A stretch of 64,000 nt of DNA from an uncultured bacterium (GTDB taxonomy: Bacteria; Actinomycetota; Acidimicrobiia; Spongiisociales; UBA5794): assembly GCA_963801165.1 (NCBI GenBank), contig CAWDDT010000011.1, forward strand, positions 128,001 to 192,000, given 5' to 3'. Positions 17,920-45,938 of the stretch are shown here, piece by piece (positions within the stretch are counted from its first letter, which is position 1; the number at the start of each line of letters is the position of its first letter). The notes beneath the pieces are model-generated. The model searched no databases. It was given only the letters and a program-made list of their open reading frames with translations, and was not told where the DNA came from. A program made the translations under genes and the position numbers.

Positions 17920-20900
17920 TCAGAGCGGCTGGCGGGGGCTTTCGGGGGGGCCCTCGTCGGTGGGGACGAAACTGGCGTCCGTGGTGAGGATGATCTTGTC
18001 GAGAATGAGACCATCATCACCCATGAAGACCTGGAACGTATGCACCCCGCCATCCGAGACCTCGATCGAAACGGGCGTCGGCAAGCGACCCACGTTCGAC
18101 CACGTCCACTCCCCGACCCCATCGCTCCAGCTGCCGTTGCCGCCGGCCGCTACGCCCCCAGCCACATCTCCGTCGATCCCGACAAAGACCCCCTTGGACC
18201 GTATGTCAAGTGCCCATGCGCGCACCCAGACATAGTAGGTGCCCGTCGTGGTGAAATCGATGTCGAAGGTCATCTCGGGCGAGGTCGTCGGCAGATTGTC
18301 GCGCAACCGGGTGCCATCGTCCGGCAGCGCCTGCATCGCCGCCTCCCCGCTGAACCCGGCTGGATCGGTGACCTCGGTCCATGTGTCACCACTCCGGGTG
18401 ATGTTCTCGAAGTAGCTCTCGGCTTCGAAGACGACAGTGCCGTCGGCTTCGATGAAAGCTCCCTCGCCACCGCCCGCCGCAACCGTCACATCATTTGATG
18501 TCATACCAGTCGCACCATCATCATCGGTCGCCGTCAACGACACCGAATAGGTGCCACCACCAGCAAAGCTATGCGACGGTGACTGCAGCGTCGACGAACC
18601 ACCATCACCAAAGTCCCAATCCCAACTGACCACCGAACCATCCGAATCAGACGACGTATCGGTAAACGTGCAATCCAAATCCGTACACGACGAGGTGAAG
18701 TCCGCCGTCGGAGCAACATTCCCGGCAGCAACCGTCACATCATTCGATGTCATACCAGTCGCACCATCATCATCGGTCACCGTCAACGACACCGAATAGG
18801 TGCCACCACCAGCAAACGAATGGCTAGGAGACTGCACACTCGACGTGCCACCATCACCAAAGTCCCAATCCCAACTGACCACCGAACCATCCGAATCAGA
18901 CGACGTATCCGTAAACGTGCAATCCAAATCCGTACACGAGAACGTGAAATCAGCCGTCGGAGCAACATTGCCGCCGGACACCGTCACATCCTGCGCAAAT
19001 GTGCCGGTAGCGCCGTCATCATCGGTCACCGTCAACGACACCGAATAGGTGCCACCACCAGCAAACGAATGGCTAGGAGACTGCACACTCGACGTGCCAC
19101 CATCACCAAAGTCCCAATCCCAACTGACCACCGAACCATCCGAATCAGACGACCCGTCCGTAAACGTGCAGTCCAAATCCGTACACGAGAACGTGAAATC
19201 AGCCGTCGGAGCAACATTGCCGCCGGACACCGTCACATCCTGCGCAAATGTGCCGGTAGCGCCGTCATCATCGGTCACCGTCAACGACACCGAATAGGTG
19301 CCACCACCAGCAAACTATGGCGACGGAGACTGCACGTCGACGTGCCACCATCACCAAAGTCCCAATCCCAACTGACCACCGAACCATCCGAATCAGACGA
19401 CCCGTCCGTAAACGTGCAGTCCAAATCCGTACACGACGACGTAAACGAGGCAGTAGGCGCGACGTTACCCGACGCAACCGTCACATCCTGCGACAGTGCG
19501 CCGGTAGCGCCGTCATCATCGGTCACCGTCAACGACACCGAATAGGTGCCACCACCAGCAAAGCTATGCGACGGTGACTGCAGCGTCGACGAACCACCAT
19601 CACCAAAGTCCCAATCCCAACTGACCACCGAACCATCCGAATCAGACGACGTATCGGTAAACGTGCAATCCAAATCCGTACACGACGAGGTGAAGTCCGC
19701 CGTCGGAGCAACATTCCCGGCAGCAACCGTCACATCATTCGATGTCATACCAGTCGCACCATCATCATCGGTCACCGTCAACGACACCGAATAGGTGCCA
19801 CCACCAGCAAACGAATGGCTAGGAGACTGCACACTCGACGTGCCACCATCACCAAAGTCCCAATCCCAACTGACCACCGAACCATCCGAATCAGACGACG
19901 TATCCGTAAACGTGCAATCCAAATCCGTACACGAGAACGTGAAATCAGCCGTCGGAGCAACATTGCCGCCGGACACCGTCACATCCTGCGCAAATGTGCC
20001 GGTAGCGCCGTCATCATCGGTCACCGTCAACGACACCGAATAGGTGCCACCACCAGCAAACGAATGGCTAGGAGACTGCACACTCGACGTGCCACCATCA
20101 CCAAAGTCCCAATCCCAACTGACCACCGAACCATCCGAATCAGACGACCCGTCCGTAAACGTGCAGTCCAAATCCGTACACGAGGCAGAGAAGTGCGCCG
20201 TCGGAGGAACGTTGGGTGGCGGTGCACCGAGATGAGCGGCGAGACGCGCCGCTAGATCCGCCTGGACTGCGGCGTAGTCTCCGTTGTCCCAGAGGTTCAC
20301 GATCTCCCAAGGGTCGTCGTTGAGGTTGTACATCTCGAACTCGCCCGCTTCGGTCAGATCGACATATTTGTACCAATCACCGTCTGTACCAATCCCGACG
20401 ATCCCGTCGTAGAAGGGATCATTGCCGTGGATGAACCATTCATCTCGCCACGTCGTCTGCGGATCGTTGAGTAGCGGCACCAGGCTCATGCCCTCGACGC
20501 CTATCGTCGGAGTCGCACCGGCAAGATCCGCAAGCGTCGGCGCGATGTCGATGTTGAGCACGTAATCGTCGCTGTTGACGCTCCCCGGGGTGGCTCCGGG
20601 ACAGACGTTGGGCGGGCACACCACTACGTACGGCACCTGATGGCAGGTGTAATACTCGCAGCCCTTGTTCCGCCAATGTTGCTCGCCGTTGGCCATCCCG
20701 TTGTCAGAGATGAAAATCCAGACGGTGTTGTCGAGCCGCCCATCACTCGCCAGTTGATCGTGAAGGGCACCGACCATGTCATCGACCGACAACGTCATCT
20801 CAATGGAATTCGTCATCGTGCGCTCGATCCGGTCAAGGACCCTGTCCGGCAGATCGGTAGTAGGCAGATGAGACGGAGTGTTCGGCGATGGAAGCACGTT

Positions 20901-21803
20901 CGTGGACGGGTAGTGCGGGATGTTGATCCCCTGAAACGCTCCCACGTGTCGATCCTCGACGTTGATCGGCAGATGCGGGCTCGCCGGGTTCAAATCGAGG
21001 AAGAACGGCGTCTGCGTATCCTCCTGAAGGAAGTCGAGCGCCAGCCTGCATACGTAGTCGGTCGAGTAGTAGTTGCCGACGGCGCACGCCTCACCCGATG
21101 TCGAGTCGGCGTTATTGAAGCGCGTGATCAGAGGCTCCTCGTCACCGGCTTGCCAACTGATCCATGGATAGTCGGTGTACGGATCGTCACTGTTGTGAAA
21201 GTCGTGATAGACCTCCCACGTGTCCCAGCCCGGTGGGATGTACCCGGAGAATGGCCCATAGCCGTAACCGTTGAGGTACTTTCCCATCAGCGCATTGCGG
21301 TAGCCGGCAGCCTGCAGCCAGGTGGCGATGGTTGACGAGTCGTCGAGCAGTGATCCGTTGTTATACGTGACGCCGTGGGTGGTCGAGTACTGACCGGTGA
21401 GGATGCTGGCGCGAGAGGGACAGCAGAGCGATTGGGTGACGTTCCCATGGAGAAACGTTATCCCCGCAGATTGGAGAAGGCTCTGGACGTTGGGCATACA
21501 GGCGTCGGCACCCGCGTGGAAGTCATATGGATCCAGTTCCGGACTGCAGCGACCGATCGTGTCCCACTTCTGGTCGTCCGTGACAATAAGGACGAAGTTC
21601 GGTTGACTGGCGCTCTCGGTTGCGGACGGCGCCGGGGGCACTGCAGCGACGGGCGCCGGTGCCACGGTAGTGGTAGGCGCAGCCGGCACAGGCCCGGCCT
21701 CGGATCCAATAGCTTGTGGCTGAAACCCCGAAAACAAGCTCATGAACATCAACACTGCCGACAAGATCGCGAAATACCGATATCTAGATAGACTCGCCCG
21801 CAC
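17920..21803 (-). CDS. Secreted formylglycine-dependent sulfatase + 7 PKD domains + C-terminal carbohydrate-binding-like domain; 1-nt frameshift near 19320-19340
   Basis: Signal peptide, PNFVLIVTDDQ, CCPSRASILTG, GKYLN, SDNG; WDWDFGDG PKD repeats continue across ORFs 19281..21839 and 17920..19290; GTG 21803 with SD AGGAGG. Confidence 0.88.
18472..20213 (-). repeat. Seven tandem 249-bp PKD-coding units; units 1-3 recur near-identically as 5-7 at a 995-bp offset
   Basis: Identical shadow ORFs at 18551/19546 and 18800/19795, and matching N-terminal halves at 19049/20044. Confidence 0.95.
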
Positions 21804-21983
21804 GATGACCCCTCCTATTGCTCGGCGAGCTGTAGCCATCAGACCAGAGGCTCACCTGCCCGCCTCCCTCTGTGCGGGCAATCTCCCAAGCGAACATACG
21901 CGGGAGAGCGCGACGCTGTGCCACTTATTACCGTCTATGACCCGGGACAGGGCAGCGCACAGCCAGGAAGCATCCGTACCGGG

Positions 21984-27004: not shown

Positions 27005-27124
27005 ATTGAAGGGCGACATCCGCAAGGGCCAGCAATCCCCCATCTCGGGGGGATCGGACGGGCGCAGCCCGGCCGAGGGGGACACAGCCAACGGCGACCA
27101 TCGCTTGTCCTTCCGCCCGGTTTC

Positions 27125-27147
27125 TTGTCACTGGCGGTTGATACCTT
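27125..27147 (+). promoter_or_regulatory. PafBC / RecA-NDp-type DNA-damage promoter, leaderless
   Basis: TTGTCACTG-GCGGTTGA-TACCTT versus consensus tTGTCRGtg-N8-TAnnnT; ATG 6 nt downstream. Confidence 0.7.
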
Positions 27148-27153
27148 GTCGTC

Positions 27154-28270
27154 ATGTTGTTTACCGATCCCGATGTTGTCGTCGATTTCCGGGCCGAGTT
27201 GGCAGAGAACAATGCCGACATTGCCCGTCTCCAGGCACGCCAGTTGACCCTGCTCAACCAGCTACACCGGGCCGGGGTCGCTCAGGCCGACGGGGCCCGC
27301 TCCATGATCGACTGGACCGCAGCCACCCTGGACGTCAACCACAACAACGCTCAGCAAATGGTCGATGCCGCCAATCGCATGTACCGCACCGACCCGCACC
27401 TATACCGACAGTTCGAAGCCGGCGACATCACCTTCGACCGGGCCATCGCCACCCTCAACCTGATCGGCACCCAAGCCCCCACCGCTGTCATCGAACGCAG
27501 CCTCCACATCGATCTGACCGCAGTCAACCGGCTCACCCACCAGTACCGGCGGATCACCCGCAAAGACGAACAACAAGCCTTCTGTGACCGCTACTTCACC
27601 ATCCAACCCAACCTGGACAACACACAATGGCGGGGCAGCTTCGAACTCCCCGCCACCGAAGGCTCCATCGTCGACCAAGCCATCGCCGGGCAAGCAGACC
27701 AGCTACGACGGCTCCCCGGCTCGGACCGTTACACCCGCAGCCAACTCAACGCCGACGCCCTGGTGATGATCTCCCAAGACTCCCTCGACAACAACACCAC
27801 CGGCACATCTTCAGGCTGTTCGGCGGCCACGGTGTTTGTTGATTTGGACCGGGCCAACGGCACATCCGGTGAGATGGGTGTCGAGCTGCGAATACGGACC
27901 GAGGGTCGGACCAACCGTCCTTGAAGAAGTTCTGTGTGGCGGCACCGTCCGCATCGTCGGACTAAAAGACGGTCAACCCGTCGTCACCACCCGGGCAACC
28001 TCGACAATCCCACCCGCGATACGTGACTTTGTGGCCTGGCGCGACAAAAGCTGCATCGTCAACGGCTGCCACAGCCGCTACCGCCTCCAAATCCACCACA
28101 TCAACCACCGAGCCCACGGCGGCGACCACGACCCCAACAACCTCGCAACCTTGTGCTGGTTCCACCACCACATCGCCATCCACCACACCGGATTCACCCT
28201 CAACCTGAGCGACCCACCCCACTGTCGCAGACTCATCAAACCCAACCACGCCCACGACCCACCCCGGTGA
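27154..28270 (+). pseudogene. DUF222 / 13E12-repeat-family HNH endonuclease, 1-nt insertion frameshift near 27886-27889
   Basis: N-terminal DGARSMIDW..., ADALV; C-terminal RDKSCIVNGC...IHHI...GG.....NLATLCWFHH; frames join at GTC GAG CTG c GAA TAC. Confidence 0.8.
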
Positions 28271-28471
28271 CACGACGTCCACTTCCCCCAGCCGAGGCCA
28301 CGACCCACCCTGGTGATGCTGCCGTGACTTCCCCCTGCCGTACTCCGCCGAGCCGACCAACCCGCCAACCCGCCGGCCCGGATCGAGCCCCCTACCTAGA
28401 GAACCCTCGCATCGGAGGGCGCTTTGGCGCGCCCGCATGAACGGGTCCGACCAGCCGCGCCAAATACCTGT

Positions 28472-40789: not shown

Positions 40790-41420
40790 TGCTCTTCACC
40801 GCCTCTCGCATGACCAGAACCGCACCTTTAGGACCGGGAACGGCGCCGCGCAACATGACGACGTTACGCTCGGCGTCGATCTTGACGACCTCCAGATTCA
40901 TCATCGTCACCTGGTCGCCACCCATACGGCCCGGGAGCCGCTTGCCCTTGAAAACACGGGACGGGGTGGCACAGGCTCCGATAGAACCGGGTGCCCGGTG
41001 CACCTTGTGGGCACCGTGGCTGGCTCCTTGTCCCTGGAAATTGTGTCGCTTCATGACGCCGGCAAAGCCTTTGCCCTTGGTGATCCCGGTCACATCCGCC
41101 TTCTTGCCCTCGGCGAGCACATCGGCGATACCGATCTCCTGACCCAGCTTGTATTGATCGGGGTCGTCGACACGAACTTCGACAATGTACTTCGCCGGAG
41201 GGGTATTCGACTTCGCAAAGTGACCGGCCGTCGCACTGTTGACGTGTTTGCTCGCCATCTCCTTGAAGGCAATCTGAATTGCCGAGTAGCCGTCTGTGCC
41301 GGCGCGCTTGATCTGAGTGACCCGAACCGGCCCAGCTTTGATGATGGTCACGGGGATGGCCCGTGCTTCATCATCAAAGATCTGAGTCATGCCCAGTTTC
41401 TCTCCGAGGATGGTATTCAC
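40782..41420 (-). CDS. rplC: 50S ribosomal protein L3
   Basis: [22 protein letters not shown]. Confidence 0.98.
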
Positions 41421-41728
41421 CTCTTGATCTCCACTTCCACGCCGGCAGGGAGGTCAAGACGCATCAGGGACTCGACTGTCTTGGGGGTGGGCTCCAGAAT
41501 GTCGATGAGCCGCCGGTGGATACGCATCTCAAAGTGCTCCCGGCTGGTTTTGTCTACATGCGGGCCCCGGATTACGCAGTAGCGATGAATCCGGGTCGGC
41601 AGTGGCACCGGACCCTTGATTTTCGCTTGAGTGCGAATCACGGTCTCTGCAATCTTGCGCGCCGACTCGTCGACGACCGAATGGTCGTACGCCTTGAGTC
41701 GGATGCGGATCCGATGTTCGTCTGCCAT
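41417..41728 (-). CDS. rpsJ: 30S ribosomal protein S10
   Basis: [17 protein letters not shown]; start ATG 41728. Confidence 0.98.
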
Positions 41729-41773
41729 TGTCTTTCTCAGTCCTCTCTGCGTGGAGCTGCGGAGCAACTCCAA

Positions 41774-41795
41774 CCTGACCGCCTACGCGGTCAGG
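41774..41795 (-). terminator. Hairpin immediately after tuf
   Basis: CCTGACCGC-GTAG-GCGGTCAGG; weak U tail. Confidence 0.5.
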
Positions 41796-41798
41796 CGG

Positions 41799-42992
41799 CT
41801 ACTTGATGATGTTGATGACCCGACCAGCACCGACAGTACGGCCACCCTCCCGAATCGCAAACCGCAACCCCTCATCCATAGCAATCGGCTTACCCAACTC
41901 CACCGTCATCTCAGTGTTATCACCAGGCATCACCATCTCAGTACCCTCAGGCAAAGACACCGTCCCAGTCACATCCGTCGTCCGGAAATAAAACTGCGGC
42001 CGATACCCATCAAAAAACGGGTTATGCCGACCACCCTCATCCTTAGTCAACACATACACCTGAGCCACAAAATTCGTATGAGGCGTAATCGAACCAGGCT
42101 TAGCAACCACCTGACCCCGCTCCACCGCATCCTTCCCAATCCCCCGCAACAACAACCCAACATTGTCCCCAGCCTGACCCTCATCAAGCAACTTACGGAA
42201 CATCTCAACACCAGTCACCGTCGTCGACTGCACATCCCGCAAACCAATGATCTCAACCTGCTCACCAACATGAATCACACCAGTCTCAATACGGCCAGTC
42301 ACCACCGTCCCCCGACCAGTAATCGAAAACACATCCTCAATCGCCATCATGAACGGCTTATCCGTCTCCCGCACCGGCTCAGGAATATACGAATCAACCG
42401 CATCCATCAACTCATGAATAGACGCAACCGCCGCCGGATCATTCTCCTCCAAAGCCTTCAAAGCAGACCCACGAACAACCGGAATGTCATCCCCAGGAAA
42501 CTCATACTCAGTAAGAAGATCCCGAACCTCGAGCTCAACCAGATCCAACAACTCCTCATCATCAACCTGATCAGTCTTATTCATATACACAACAATGTAA
42601 GGAACACCAACCTGACGAGCCAACAACACATGCTCACGAGTCTGCGGCATCGGACCATCAGCAGCAGACACCACCAAAATCGCCCCATCAACCTGAGCAG
42701 CACCCGTAATCATGTTCTTCACATAATCAGCATGCCCCGGCATATCAACATGCGCATAATGACGATTCGCCGTCTCATACTCCACATGAGCAATCGCAAT
42801 CGTGATACCCCGCTCCCTCTCCTCAGGAGCCTTATCAATCTCATCAAACGCCGTAAACTTCGTCGACCCCGACCCCTCCTCAGACAACACCTTCGTAATC
42901 GCAGCCGTCAAAGTCGTCTTCCCATGATCAATATGACCCATAGTCCCAACATTCACATGCGGCTTCGTCCGCTCGAACTTCTCCTTAGCCAT
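41799..42992 (-). CDS. tuf: Elongation factor Tu
   Basis: [32 protein letters not shown]. Confidence 0.99.
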
Positions 42993-43006
42993 CTTTGATC
43001 TCCTAG

Positions 43007-45091
43007 TTACTCGCCTCGAACCTTGGCCACGATCTCGCGTGCTGCTTCGGTCGGAACTTCCTGATACGAATGAAACTGCATGGTGTATTGCGCCCGTCCC
43101 TGAGTTCGTGACCTCAGGTCGGTGGCATAGCCGAACATCTCTGCCAGCGGCACCAGAGCGGTGACGAGCCGGGCATTGCCACGGGTGTCCATGGCCTCGA
43201 CCTTGCCCCGACGCGAGGAAAGGTCGCCGATGACATCGCCCATGTACTCCTCTGGTGTTACCACCTCGAGCTCCATCACGGGCTCGAGGAGCTTCACGCC
43301 GGCTTGTCTTGCGGCATCCTTCAGTGCCATAGAGCCCGCAATTCGGAACGCCATCTCGGACGAGTCAACCGCGTGGCTGCTTCCGTCGGTGAGTGTGGCC
43401 TTCAGATCGACAAGCGGGTAGCCCGCCAGCACGCCACCCTCGAGAGCGTCACGGAGACCCTTCTCGACGGCGGGGATGTACTCACGAGGCACACGGCCGC
43501 CCCTGACCTTGTCCTCGAACTCGAACCCGGTGCCGGGTGGCAGCGGATCGAGGCTGATGACCACCTCGGCGAACATACCGGAGCCACCGGTCTGCCGCTT
43601 GAGACGAAGCCTGAAACCGGAGACACCCTTCTTGACGGTCTCGCGGTAGGCGACCTGGGGGCGCCCCACGTTGGCCTGGACCTTGAACTCACGCATCAGA
43701 CGATCGACGATGATCTCGAGGTGAAGCTCGCCCATGCCGCTGATGATGGTCTGGCCGGTGTCCTCATCGGACCTGACCGTGAAGGTTGGATCCTCCTCGG
43801 CGAGCCGGCCCAGGGCGGTGGCGAGCTTGTCCTGGTCGCTCTTGGTTCTGGGCTCGATGGCAACTGCGATCACCGGAGCGGGAAAGGTCATCGACTCGAG
43901 TTGGATCTGGGCATCGGTTGCGGCGAGGGTATCCCCGGTCCTGGTGTGCTTGAGGCCGACTGCGGCAACGATGTCGCCGGTGTGGATCTCGTCGATGTCC
44001 TCCTGCGCGGCGGCGTGCATACGGAGGAGACGACCGAAGCGCTCCTTCTTCCGGTCCGTCGTATTGGTCACAGCATCGCCCTTGCCCGCCGTGCCCGAAT
44101 AGACACGGAAGTAGGTGAGCTTGCCAACATATGGGTCGGACATGATCTTGAAGGCGAGGGCGCTGAACGGCTCTTTGTCGTCGGCGTGCCTCTGGAGTGG
44201 CCTGTCCTCGTGCCCGGGTTGGAAGCCCTCGATCGGTGGCATGTCGAGCGGGCTCGGCAGGTAGTCGACGACCCCGTCGAGAAGCGGTTGGACACCTTTG
44301 TTCTTGAACGCCGAGCCGCACATCACCGGTACGAAGTCACGATCGATGGTGCCCTTGCGTATGACTTTGCGGATCTCCTTCGGGTCGAGATCGTCCTCCT
44401 GAAGGTACTTCCCCAGCAACTCCTCGTCCTCTGAGGCAACGACATCGAGCATCTTGTGATGCCATTCGTTGGCGAGATCTGCGAACTCCTCGGGAATGCC
44501 GACGATCTCTCGCTGCTTGCCTTCCTCGTCGTGCCAGATGATCGACTTCATCTCGACGAGGTCGATGACACCGTGGAAGTTCGCCTCGGCGCCCATCGGA
44601 ACCTGGATGGCAACCGGATTGCCACCGAGGCGCTCGACGATCGCCTCGACTGTGCCAAAGAAATCGGCGCCGACCCGGTCCATCTTGTTGATGAAACAAA
44701 TACGGGGGACCCGGTACTTGTCGGCCTGACGCCACACCGTCTCCGATTGGGGTTCGACACCAGACACGGCGTCGAACACGGCGACGGCACCGTCGAGGAC
44801 ACGCAGCGAGCGCTCCACCTCTACGGTGAAGTCGACGTGACCCGGCGTGTCGATGATGTTGATCACGTGGTCGTTCCAATGTGCGGTCGTCGCCGCCGAA
44901 GTGATGGTTATGCCGCGCTCTTGTTCCTGCTCCATCCAGTCCATCACGGCCGCGCCCTCATGGACCTCACCCATCTTGTAGGTGCGGCCCGTGTAATAGA
45001 GAATCCGCTCGGTGGTCGTGGTCTTCCCAGCGTCAATGTGGGCCATGATCCCGATGTTGCGGATTTTCTCGAGGGGGATGGTGCGTGCCAT
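43007..45091 (-). CDS. fusA: Elongation factor G
   Basis: [21 protein letters not shown]. Confidence 0.99.
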
Positions 45092-45099
45092 TTGGATTG

Positions 45100-45567
45100 T
45101 TACCAGCGGTAGTGGGCGAAGGCTCGGTTGGACTCCGCCATCTTGTGGATGTCTTCACGGCGCTTCACAGCAGAGCCGGTGCGGTTGGAGGCGTCGAGGA
45201 TCTCGTTGGCGAGTCGCAACGACATGGTGTTCTCTTTGCGCTTTCGGGCGAACTCAACGAGCCAACGGACCGCCAGCGTCTGCGCCCTGCGGGGAATGAC
45301 CTCGACCGGTACCTGATACGACGAGCCACCAACTCTGCGGGACCGCACCTCGACGGCGGGCCGGATGTTGTCGATCGCACGCTTCAGCACCTTGACGGGG
45401 TCGTCCCCCGTCCGCTTCTGCACAGTCTCGAGAGACCCATAGACGATGCGGCGAGCCGCGCCCTTCTTGCCCCGCCACAGCACTTTGTTGATCACCTGGG
45501 TGACCAAAACGCTGCGGTAGATCGGATCTGGCTCGAGTTTGCGGATTTCGGCTGGAGCCCTGCGCAT
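45100..45567 (-). CDS. rpsG: 30S ribosomal protein S7
   Basis: [23 protein letters not shown]. Confidence 0.98.
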
Positions 45568-45938
45568 CAGCCCTCCTTCTTCGTGCCGTAGCGGGAACGG
45601 GACTGCTTGCGGCCGTCGACGCCGGCGGCGTCGAGCGCTCCGCGAATGACCTTGTAGCGAACACCGGGAAGGTCCTTGACACGACCACCACGCACCAGCA
45701 CGATCGAGTGCTCCTGGAGGTTGTGGCCCTCTCCGGGGATGTACGCCGTGATCTCCATCTGTGAAGTCAGACGGACACGAGCGACCTTGCGCAGCGCGGA
45801 GTTCGGCTTCTTCGGTGTGACGGTGTAAACACGCGTGCAGACGCCTCGCCTCTGCGGCGAGCCGGCGAGACCGAGTGTCTTGGTCTTCTTCGGCTTAGGC
45901 TGACGGCCTTGTCGAATCAGTTGCTGCACAGTCGGCAC
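45567..45938 (-). CDS. rpsL: 30S ribosomal protein S12
   Basis: [18 protein letters not shown]. Confidence 0.99.

What the first reader, a model, noticed from the sequence alone, without database searches (positions are those of the whole stretch)
41799..42992. tuf is almost completely recoded to G/T-ending codons, opposite to its operon neighbours
Seen: 49 of the first 50 tuf codons end in G or T (one ends in C, none in A), e.g. CAT, AAT, ATT, GAT, TTT, TTG. In adjacent fusA, 16 of the first 30 codons end in C. The bias runs through the gene, then reverts in the last codons (GTC ATC AAC ATC ATC AAG). Established: highly expressed bacterial genes prefer C-ending Phe/Tyr/Asn/Ile codons, so this is the reverse of translational selection. 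tuf is also often duplicated and homogenised by gene conversion. Inference: a process confined to repeated DNA drives C>T and A>G on one strand (the ssDNA deamination spectrum). The reversion at the gene end would mark the edge of homology with a second tuf copy, which is not visible in this window.
Basis: partly seen in the sequence, partly recalled or inferred. Interest (0 to 1): 0.85.

Follow-up and report, generated by a model that had tools for sequence, protein, structure and literature searches.

The report
Duplicated tuf recoded by biased conversion
This EF-Tu gene is one of two identical copies whose silent codon positions are almost all G or T, and the same one-strand bias marks other repeated genes here, so it probably comes from biased copying between repeats, possibly caused by this group's unusual mismatch-repair enzyme.

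Summary
Third positions of tuf (window 41799-42992, minus strand) are A 0.00, C 0.05, G 0.51, T 0.44. That is z = 9.9 against 3011 long ORFs of the genome; fusA next door has C 0.46.

A second, 100% identical tuf lies 23 kb upstream, just beyond the window. The bias is not special to tuf. In this genome, 21 of 41 short repeat segments are G+T-rich on the leading-strand sequence. The bias is confined to the repeated part of each gene and is mirrored in lagging-strand genes. That excludes translational or mRNA selection and transcription as causes. The EF-Tu tree excludes horizontal transfer.

Across the phylum:
- 21 of 21 genomes with two near-identical tuf copies and the mismatch endonuclease NucS are skewed (G+T3 0.65-0.95).
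- 17 of 17 two-copy genomes without NucS range from 0.37 to 0.65.
- Single-copy relatives are normal.

Published work shows NucS recognises G/T, G/G and T/T mismatches but not A/C, C/C or A/A. That is exactly the keto/amino split seen here.

Best reading: strand-asymmetric, keto-biased gene conversion. The NucS step is inferred, not shown.

The parts
41799..42992 (-). tuf (EF-Tu), the tufA-type copy downstream of fusA. Third positions are 94.7% G or T, with no A-ending codon.
41766..42996 (.). Repeat unit of 1231 bp, 100% identical to G000:C11:192911-194141 (the tufB-type copy, 23 kb upstream and just outside the window). Identity runs from 4 nt upstream of ATG to 33 nt past the stop codon.
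41774..41795 (-). Inverted repeat (9-bp arms, 4-nt loop) just after the tuf stop codon, shared by both copies. It looks like a terminator, but I did not run the terminator scan.
   Evidence: read from the sequence
41799..41840 (-). Last 14 codons of tuf, where C-ending codons persist (7 of 14). This is the weak 3' end of a 5'-to-3' gradient.
43007..45091 (-). fusA (EF-G), with normal codon usage (C3 0.46). It serves as an internal control in the same operon.
45100..45938 (-). rpsG (45100-45567) and rpsL (45567-45938), the start of the str operon.
41417..41773 (-). rpsJ (S10) ORF downstream of tuf. The homology between the two tuf copies ends before it.
18473..20214 (-). Tandem PKD-domain repeats (91-97% identical) spanning two ORFs (17920-19290 and 19281-21839). 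They carry the same signature inside the repeat only: A 0.02, C 0.18-0.19, G 0.39, T 0.40 inside, against C 0.41-0.47 and T 0.14-0.18 outside.
41631..42998 (+). Antisense open frame of 455 codons in codon register with tuf. It is a by-product: with no A-ending tuf codon, no antisense codon can start with T, so no stop codon can arise.
   Evidence: inference

Best explanation
tuf is one of two copies kept identical by gene conversion. One copy follows fusA; the other follows a tRNA-Tyr/Thr/Met cluster. Its G/T-ending codons are the strongest local case of a wider process in this genome: sequence tracts that convert each other become enriched in keto bases (G, T) and depleted in amino bases (A, C) on the strand that has the leading-strand sequence. 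Protein sequence is held fixed by selection.

Proposed mechanism (inferred). In ectopic recombination at replication forks, the recipient's strand in the heteroduplex is always the leading-strand-sense strand. This could be the nascent leading 3' end or the lagging-strand template. The only mismatch-repair enzyme found, NucS/EndoMS, recognises G/T, G/G and T/T mismatches but not A/C, C/C or A/A. Conversions that would replace a resident G or T by A or C create recognised mismatches and are undone. Conversions that replace a resident A or C by G or T create invisible mismatches and go through. The result is a steady drive toward G/T on that strand.

Invasion from a 3' end would also explain why the drive weakens toward the 3' edge of tuf.

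My confidence that this is a conversion-linked, replication-oriented bias rather than selection, transcription or horizontal transfer is about 0.85. My confidence in the NucS step is about 0.45.
For: Shown:
1. The two copies are identical, and identity is limited to the CDS plus a few flanking bases. The second copy follows tRNA-Tyr, tRNA-Thr and tRNA-Met.
2. In the ten two-copy genomes of the order compared so far, the copies differ at only 0-16 nt.
3. The bias is confined to repeated DNA. Two adjacent SLH paralogues share 491 bp at 99.8% identity. Inside that segment third positions are A 0.01, C 0.11-0.12, G 0.52, T 0.35-0.36. Outside they are C 0.45-0.48, T 0.12-0.14 (Fisher on C:T two-fold sites, p 3e-8 and 8e-11). 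PKD repeats in the window behave the same way (p 3e-11 and 2e-7).
4. The orthologous SLH pairs in two other species (G005, G014) also share 520-528 bp at 98% identity and show the same inside/outside contrast.
5. The orientation follows replication. dnaA sits where GC skew flips from minus to plus, so the G-rich strand is the leading strand. In 13 of 14 skewed repeats the G+T-rich strand is the leading-sense strand.
6. Of 41 repeat segments under 3 kb, 21 have leading-oriented keto skew above +0.10 and 2 below -0.10. Random windows give 8.1% and 1.4%. Eight of 41 exceed 0.2, against 0.45% of random windows.
7. A lagging-strand Big_7 gene shows the mirror image on its coding strand: A:G at two-fold purine sites is 44:9 inside the repeat and 7:25 outside (p 4e-8).
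8. Both A and C are depleted, and both G and T are enriched.
9. Comparative data. All 21 genomes with a NucS_C hit above 100 bits and two tuf copies differing at 22 nt or fewer have G+T3 of 0.645-0.947. The 17 two-copy genomes with no NucS_C hit above 30 bits have 0.37-0.65. The 11 single-copy genomes have 0.39-0.55.
10. MutS_V was found in 0 of 38 relatives and not in G000. G000 has a full NucS with both N and C domains.
11. In the EF-Tu tree, single-copy normal lineages are interleaved with two-copy skewed ones.
12. Polarity. The fraction of A/C-ending codons by gene decile is 0.15, 0.15, 0.13, 0.15, 0.15, 0.18, 0.24, 0.17, 0.22, 0.39 in 22 NucS-positive two-copy genes. The correlation is positive in 21 of 22, and controls are flat.

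From papers (passages read):
- NucS prefers G-T, G-G and T-T and shows no activity on A-C. Its loss raises homeologous recombination tenfold at 90% identity (PMC8228993).
- In vivo in M. smegmatis, oligonucleotide-borne C-C, A-A, G-A, A-G, C-A and A-C mismatches escape repair, while G-G and G-T are rejected (PMC11551744).
Against: - No experiment links NucS to the bias. NucS presence is clade-structured, so the 21-against-17 contrast rests on perhaps two to four independent gains or losses.
- G+T3 ranges touch: G051 without NucS scores 0.65 and G317 with NucS scores 0.645.
- G147 has NucS and two copies but is barely skewed (C3 0.40-0.42). Its copies differ at 42 nt.
- In the genus of G030, C3 ranges from 0.19 to 0.46 and NucS was found in only 2 of 6 incomplete genomes, so that group can be used neither for nor against.
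- The sign of the drive depends on two assumptions I could not test: which strand is resident in the heteroduplex, and that the incoming strand is the one corrected.
- Some keto-skewed regions of G000 are not repeated today (C9:431201-432100, C8:14701-15500, C6:14901-15800).
- One repeat, the DUF11 gene at C6:178875-180021, is skewed against the local leading strand. It lies about 20 kb from the skew switch of that contig.
- Wild-type C. glutamicum already shows leading-strand excess of C>T and A>G point mutations (PMC6159521). A purely mutational route in the same direction therefore exists.
Confidence: 0.55

Rival explanations
1. Recombination- or replication-linked single-strand damage. The leading-sense strand of repeats spends more time single-stranded, in gaps, resected tails or D-loops. 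It suffers cytosine and adenine deamination, or uncorrected misincorporation, and gene conversion spreads the resulting C>T and A>G changes to both copies.
For: - The two dominant changes are C>T and A>G on one strand.
- The orientation matches the strand classically thought to be exposed during replication.
- Wild-type C. glutamicum mutation-accumulation lines show leading-strand C>T at 1.04 against G>A at 0.57, and A>G at 0.84 against T>C at 0.22, all x1e-9 (PMC6159521, passages read).
- The confinement to repeats fits.
Against: - At four-fold sites G gains much more than A loses. In SLH paralogue A, G goes from 40/124 to 57/92 while A goes from 11/124 to 1/92. In tuf, G is 104/202 against 61-75 of about 215-222 in G016, G015 and G034, three single-copy relatives of the same order. 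This needs C>G or T>G flux that deamination does not give.
- A is removed as fully as C, and in weakly skewed repeats A goes first. From recall, adenine deaminates far more slowly than cytosine.
- 17 of 17 two-copy genomes without NucS lack a strong keto skew, even though their copies are 0-14 nt apart.
Confidence: 0.27
2. Selection on the tuf message. A C-poor, G/U-rich mRNA might resist a C-dependent ribonuclease, avoid Rho loading, or fold less, and so be favoured in the most abundant transcript.
For: tuf is probably among the most expressed genes, and C is avoided at nearly every synonymous opportunity, including Leu CTN to TTG. The ideas about RNase E cleaving next to C and about C-rich Rho sites are recalled, not tested.
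Against: - The same signature occurs in surface-protein repeats (SLH, PKD), only inside the repeated segment.
- Lagging-strand genes carry the mirror image on their mRNA, with A/C-rich third positions.
- fusA, in the same operon, is normal.
- Single-copy tuf of close relatives is normal.
- Arg stays CGN: AGG accounts for 1 of 22 Arg codons.
Confidence: 0.04
3. Horizontal transfer of tuf from a donor with G/T-ending codon usage, or an assembly artefact.
For: The GC content of the tuf repeat (0.52) is below that of the genome (0.64).
Against: - EF-Tu nests within its own genus and family in a 52-row tree.
- Both copies sit in the conserved tufA and tufB contexts.
- No donor with such usage was seen among 80 diverse tuf genes.
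- The changes are strictly synonymous, which is not an error pattern.
- The same pattern appears in 20 other genomes.
Confidence: 0.02

Closest known systems
Concerted evolution of tufA and tufB by gene conversion (Salmonella and E. coli; reported for 6 phyla including Actinobacteria)
   Same: There are two copies in the conserved fusA and tRNA contexts. Identity is limited to the coding sequence, and the copies are nearly identical within each genome (PMC5485169 and PMC6053082, passages read).
   Different: In the passages I read, those reports describe homogenisation with uniform initiation and no compositional drive. Here conversion goes with near-total loss of A/C at silent sites on one strand and a 5'-to-3' polarity. 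Two-copy tuf in 17 NucS-less genomes and in the sampled proteobacteria shows no such bias.
GC-biased gene conversion (gBGC)
   Same: A transmission bias during recombination changes base composition regardless of fitness. It acts only where recombination occurs.
   Different: gBGC favours G and C on both strands. Here T rises from about 0.09 to 0.44 and GC3 falls. The favoured set is G+T, on one strand only.
Replication-associated GC and keto skew of bacterial chromosomes
   Same: The direction is the same (G+T excess on the leading-strand sequence) and so is the orientation rule.
   Different: The magnitude is about ten times larger: 0.3 against 0.03. It is confined to repeat tracts of a few hundred to about 2700 bp.
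NucS/EndoMS non-canonical mismatch repair
   Same: The enzyme's published substrate split (G/T, G/G, T/T against A/C, C/C, A/A) is the same keto/amino partition as the bias. NucS limits homeologous recombination (PMC8228993, PMC11551744, PMC6159521). NucS is present and MutS was not found in G000.
   Different: I found no published role for NucS in shaping repeat composition. A 2026 preprint on M. tuberculosis (PMC13061034, passages read) reports T>C/A>G enrichment in paralogous regions. It speculates about recombination-linked repair asymmetry, but without strand orientation or a keto rule.
Repeat-induced point mutation (fungi) and APOBEC-type strand-coordinated clusters (recalled, not tested)
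   Same: Both are repeat- or single-strand-linked, and both involve strand-coordinated C loss.
   Different: RIP hits both strands and destroys genes. Here the genes stay intact, the changes are synonymous, A is lost as well, and there is no sign of a dedicated deaminase (I did not search for one).

Membership tests
EF-Tu (tuf) | GTP_EFTU, GTP_EFTU_D2 and GTP_EFTU_D3 domains in a protein of about 395 aa | tested here: met
   215.6, 69.6 and 132.7 bits, in a 397-aa protein
tufA/tufB concerted-evolution pair | Two copies in distinct conserved contexts, more alike within a genome than between species, with identity ending at the CDS borders | tested here: met
Translational-selection codon bias | The same preferred codons shared by other highly expressed genes of the genome | tested here: not met
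   fusA has C3 0.46. No other ORF of at least 300 aa exceeds G+T3 0.71.
GC-biased gene conversion | G and C favoured over A and T, symmetric between strands | tested here: not met
   T3 is 0.44, GC3 falls, and there is a mirror image on lagging-strand genes
Replication strand skew | G+T excess on the leading-strand sequence, changing sign at the origin | tested here: met
   The direction is met in 13 of 14 skewed repeats, and the dnaA position validates the polarity. The magnitude and the confinement to repeats are atypical.
Single-strand deamination spectrum | Only C>T (and weaker A>G), with no transversion flux | tested here: inconclusive
   C>T and A>G dominate, but the G gain exceeds the A loss at four-fold sites. 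GC pressure acting on T could mimic this.
Repeat-induced point mutation | C>T on both strands of repeats, leading to gene inactivation | tested here: not met
   One strand only, frames intact, no shift at the second codon position
NucS/EndoMS-dependent repair | NucS_N plus NucS_C protein present and MutS absent | tested here: met
   genome 98% complete
NucS/EndoMS-dependent repair | NucS acts on heteroduplex between the repeats and causes the bias | not testable with these tools
   Only a correlation across genomes and published specificity

The most novel reading that the evidence does not exclude
NucS/EndoMS, because it sees G/T, G/G and T/T but not their complementary mismatches, turns every ectopic recombination at a replication fork into a keto-biased gene conversion. 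This would be a previously unrecognised evolutionary drive in NucS-bearing, MutS-less Actinomycetota, and perhaps in Archaea. It would recode multi-copy genes against codon preference. It would also leave a genomic record of which strand is resident in recombination heteroduplex and of the polarity of strand invasion.
Probability: 0.35. Interest if true: 0.9.

Novelty: new variant of a known kind. Interest (0 to 1): 0.8.

Why it matters
If this is right, a repair enzyme's substrate asymmetry is enough to overwrite codon preference in one of the most strongly selected genes of a cell.

- It would add a strand-specific form of biased gene conversion beside the GC-biased one.
- It warns that codon-usage, dN/dS, horizontal-transfer and expression predictors will misread multi-copy genes in NucS organisms.
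- It offers a purely genomic read-out of fork-associated recombination: which strand invades, and from which end.
- It gives a clean, testable phenotype for NucS in recombination.
- It may also bear on how paralogous gene families evolve in other NucS-bearing actinobacteria.

Tried and rejected
I used it only as a background sample.
- Treating G030 (two copies, C3 0.43, no NucS hit) as a natural NucS knock-out was dropped. Its genus has NucS in 2 of 6 genomes, those genomes are 72-93% complete, and C3 there ranges from 0.19 to 0.46.
- Transcription-coupled asymmetry and R-loop ideas were rejected because lagging-strand repeat genes carry the mirror image.
- mRNA-level selection (RNase E, Rho, folding) was rejected for the same reason and because single-copy tuf genes are normal. 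I ran no folding.
- I looked for a protein-level shift and found none: keto fraction at codon position 2 is 0.456 against 0.460.
- Large repeats of 3 kb or more (6 segments) and the roughly 1.42-kb repeats show no skew. I assume these are mobile elements but did not annotate them. The bias is therefore not a property of every repeat.
- Literature searches for a prior description found none. The closest is a speculative sentence in preprint PMC13061034. The library lacks most subscription journals, and I read no supplements.
- G027 and G038 are unpublished genomes. Their tuf appeared only in the listings.

Full report
THE OBSERVATION

The ORF at window 41799-42992 (minus strand) is tuf. It has 397 codons and Pfam GTP_EFTU, D2 and D3 domains. 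It lies in the order rpsL, rpsG, fusA, tuf, rpsJ. Its third codon positions are A 0.000, C 0.053, G 0.506, T 0.441. fusA, 14 nt upstream, has A 0.075, C 0.464, G 0.331, T 0.130.

The first 50 tuf codons end in G 32, T 17, C 1. The first 30 fusA codons end in C 16, G 9, T 3, A 2. Leucine has also moved from CTN to TTG (19 against 5). Arginine stays CGN: AGG accounts for 1 of 22 Arg codons.

Among 3011 ORFs of at least 300 aa in the 4.55-Mb genome, G+T at third positions has mean 0.471 and sd 0.048. The two tuf copies score 0.947 (z 9.9), and the next ORF scores 0.706. The plus strand over tuf has GC skew down to -0.51 and AT skew up to +0.30, against about -0.05 in the flanks.

A SECOND COPY

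The window is G000:C11:128001-192000. A second tuf lies at C11:192944-194137 on the same strand, 23 kb upstream and 944 nt beyond the window end. It is 100% identical over all 1194 nt. Identity starts 4 nt before ATG and runs 33 nt past the stop codon, through a shared hairpin. This copy follows tRNA-Tyr, tRNA-Thr and tRNA-Met, which is the classical tufB arrangement.

NOT ONLY TUF

A genome-wide self-comparison (at least 90% identity, at least 400 bp) gave 47 merged repeat segments. Several carry the same signature, and only inside the repeated part of the gene.

| Gene | Third positions inside the repeat | Third positions outside | C:T at two-fold sites, inside vs outside |
|---|---|---|---|
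| SLH paralogue A (C11:378790-379887); shares 491 bp at 99.8% with B | A 0.01, C 0.12, G 0.52, T 0.35 | A 0.08, C 0.48, T 0.12 | 8:33 vs 35:9 (p 3e-8) |
| SLH paralogue B (C11:379898-381892) | A 0.01, C 0.11, G 0.52, T 0.36 | A 0.06, C 0.45, T 0.14 | 7:34 vs 90:30 (p 8e-11) |
| PKD repeats in a sulfatase and its neighbour (window 17920-21839) | A 0.02, C 0.18-0.19, T 0.40 | C 0.41-0.47, T 0.14-0.18 | p 3e-11 and 2e-7 |

The orthologous SLH pairs of two other species of the genus (G005, G014) also share 520-528 bp at 98% identity and show the same contrast. These are surface-protein genes, not top-expressed ones.

THE STRAND RULE

dnaA lies at C5:498529-499011, exactly where GC skew flips from negative to positive. 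In this organism the G-rich strand is therefore the leading strand.

In 13 of 14 skewed repeats, the G+T-rich strand is the strand that is G-rich in the 40 kb of flank on each side. Of 41 repeat segments under 3 kb, 21 have leading-oriented keto skew above +0.10 and 2 below -0.10. For 8200 random windows of the same lengths the figures are 8.1% and 1.4%. Eight of 41 exceed 0.2, against 0.45% of random windows. These segments are pairs, so the number of independent families is roughly half. Six segments of 3 kb or more show none.

The rule holds against gene orientation. A Big_7 gene on the lagging strand (C4:764068-767790) contains three tandem repeat units of about 900 bp. Its coding strand shows A:G at two-fold purine sites of 44:9 inside the repeats and 7:25 outside (p 4e-8). 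Third positions are C 0.63 and A 0.13. Three further lagging-strand repeat genes show the same mirror image more weakly.

This excludes transcription, translation and mRNA properties as the source of the asymmetry.

The exception is a DUF11 gene at C6:178875-180021, about 20 kb from the skew switch of that contig.

RELATIVES

EF-Tu of G000 nests within its genus and family in a 52-row maximum-likelihood tree, so it is not foreign.

Within the order and class, every genome with two near-identical copies is skewed to some degree, with C3 from 0.05 to 0.35. Single-copy genomes have C3 0.44-0.54 and T3 0.06-0.15. These are G016 in 9 contigs, G100, G206 and G252 complete or nearly so, and G015 and G034 where tuf sits contiguously in its contig. 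They are interleaved with skewed lineages in the tree. The bias therefore needs two copies and fades when one is lost.

Elsewhere in the phylum, many lineages keep two copies 0-14 nt apart without any strong skew.

THE NUCS CORRELATION

G000 encodes a full NucS with N and C domains, and no MutS_V was found in a 98%-complete genome. MutS_V was found in 0 of 38 relatives searched.

| Group | Genomes | G+T at third positions |
|---|---|---|
| NucS_C hit above 100 bits; two tuf copies differing at 22 nt or fewer | 21 | 0.645-0.947 (mean 0.82) |
| No NucS_C hit above 30 bits; two copies | 17 (11 families) | 0.37-0.65 |
| Single copy | 11 | 0.39-0.55 |

Exceptions and caveats:
- G147 has NucS and copies 42 nt apart, and is barely skewed.
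- The two ranges touch, at G051 and G317.
- NucS presence follows clades, so independent contrasts are few. The skewed NucS-positive set comprises the class of G000 plus a separate clade (f25, f62).
- The genus of G030 cannot be scored, because its genomes are 72-93% complete and NucS was found in only 2 of 6.

WHY NUCS IS A GOOD CANDIDATE

Passages read in PMC8228993, PMC11551744 and PMC6159521 state three things:
- NucS/EndoMS prefers G-T, G-G and T-T and does not act on A-C.
- In vivo, oligonucleotide-borne C-C, A-A, G-A, A-G, C-A and A-C mismatches escape repair, while G-G and G-T are rejected.
- Loss of NucS raises homeologous recombination tenfold at 90% identity.

Suppose the recipient's strand in the heteroduplex is always the leading-sense strand, and the incoming strand is the one corrected. 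A resident G or T facing a donor allele A or C then gives G/T, T/G, G/G or T/T, which is recognised, and the conversion is undone. A resident A or C facing a donor G or T gives A/C, C/A, C/C or A/A, which is invisible, and the conversion goes through.

The net flux is toward G and T on that strand, for transitions and for C>G and A>T transversions alike. This matches what is seen:
- Both A and C are lost, and both G and T are gained.
- G gains more than A loses at four-fold sites. In SLH paralogue A, G goes from 40/124 to 57/92 while A goes from 11/124 to 1/92. In tuf, the counts are A0 C5 G104 T93, against A6-10 C112-128 G61-75 T17-29 in G016, G015 and G034, three single-copy relatives of the same order.
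- Weakly driven tracts lose A first, because that direction agrees with GC pressure. C is replaced by T only where the drive is strong.

POLARITY

In 22 NucS-positive two-copy tuf genes, the share of A/C-ending codons by decile is 0.15, 0.15, 0.13, 0.15, 0.15, 0.18, 0.24, 0.17, 0.22, 0.39. Spearman rho is positive in 21 of 22, and controls are flat at 0.5-0.6.

The 5' edge is fully converted although homology ends within 0-13 nt of ATG. Only the 3' edge is spared. This is what invasion by a leading-sense 3' end would give. A site is covered by heteroduplex only if the end lies downstream of it but still inside the homology. This step is inference.

RIVALS

- Single-strand deamination or uncorrected misincorporation on the leading-sense strand, spread by conversion, remains plausible (about 0.27). 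Wild-type C. glutamicum lines show leading-strand excess of C>T and A>G. This rival handles the G gain, the complete A loss and the NucS-less two-copy genomes less well.
- Selection on the message (about 0.04), and horizontal transfer or artefact (about 0.02), are contradicted as described above.

NOVELTY

Concerted evolution of tuf, including in Actinobacteria, is known (PMC6053082, PMC5485169; passages read). A one-strand, keto-directed bias of conversion tracts was not found in five searches of the held library.

The nearest statement is in a 2026 preprint on M. tuberculosis (PMC13061034). It reports that paralogous regions are enriched in T>C/A>G and suggests that recombination-linked repair asymmetry might reshape their composition. 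A Haloferax study reports that nucS deletion impairs gene conversion (PMC11276520). I read no supplements, and most subscription journals are not in the library.

I rate this as a new variant of biased gene conversion. The descriptive part is well supported. The NucS mechanism is an inference that a simple reporter experiment can test.

Noticed in passing
window 41631-42998 (+): A 455-codon open frame runs antisense to tuf, in codon register with it. Because no tuf codon ends in A, no antisense codon can begin with T, so the frame is open by necessity. It is not evidence of a gene.
   Followed up: partly
window 27121-28299 (G000:C11:155121-156299): A DUF222-family ORF (window 27154-27921, plus strand) is 93% identical over 1183 bp to a copy at C6:358494-359673. 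Both copies lie on the lagging strand and both have leading-oriented keto skew of 0.19-0.22. I could not tell whether this is conversion or the element's own composition.
   Followed up: partly
tuf codons 6, 63, 93, 132 and 214 (window about 42975-42977, 42804-42806, 42714-42716, 42597-42599, 42351-42353): The same few C-ending codons (TTC, ATC, AAC, TAC, TTC) persist at the same positions in most skewed tuf genes, including those from other families. This suggests site-specific selection that resists the drive.
   Followed up: no
G000:C9:431201-432100, C8:14701-15500, C6:14901-15800: These regions have keto skew of 0.24-0.31 but no other copy in the genome. The C9 region is oriented against the local leading strand. 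They are unexplained; they could be former repeats or acquired DNA.
   Followed up: partly
L002 and L003 (G009, G001), tuf codons about 140-210: The tuf genes of two species of the same genus are mosaics. C-free stretches alternate with a block rich in both A- and C-ending codons, as if a segment had been imported or only part of the gene were being converted.
   Followed up: no
L184, L185, L186 (G337, G340, G339): The second tuf copies in three genomes of family f7 match EF-Tu in two frames, a frameshift near residue 160 or 320. In G337 the two copies differ in skew. This could be assembly error in low-completeness genomes, or decaying copies.
   Followed up: no
G000:C5:498529-499011 and C6 near 200 kb: dnaA coincides with the minus-to-plus GC-skew switch on contig C5. 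Contig C6 has a plus-to-minus switch near 200 kb, which looks like a terminus. Only 55.6% of long-ORF residues are encoded on the leading strand.
   Followed up: partly
G005, G014, G016: The triple-SLH N-terminal module is a very large paralogue family, with 61, 40 and 28 matches per genome. It offers many more tracts on which the strand rule could be tested.
   Followed up: no
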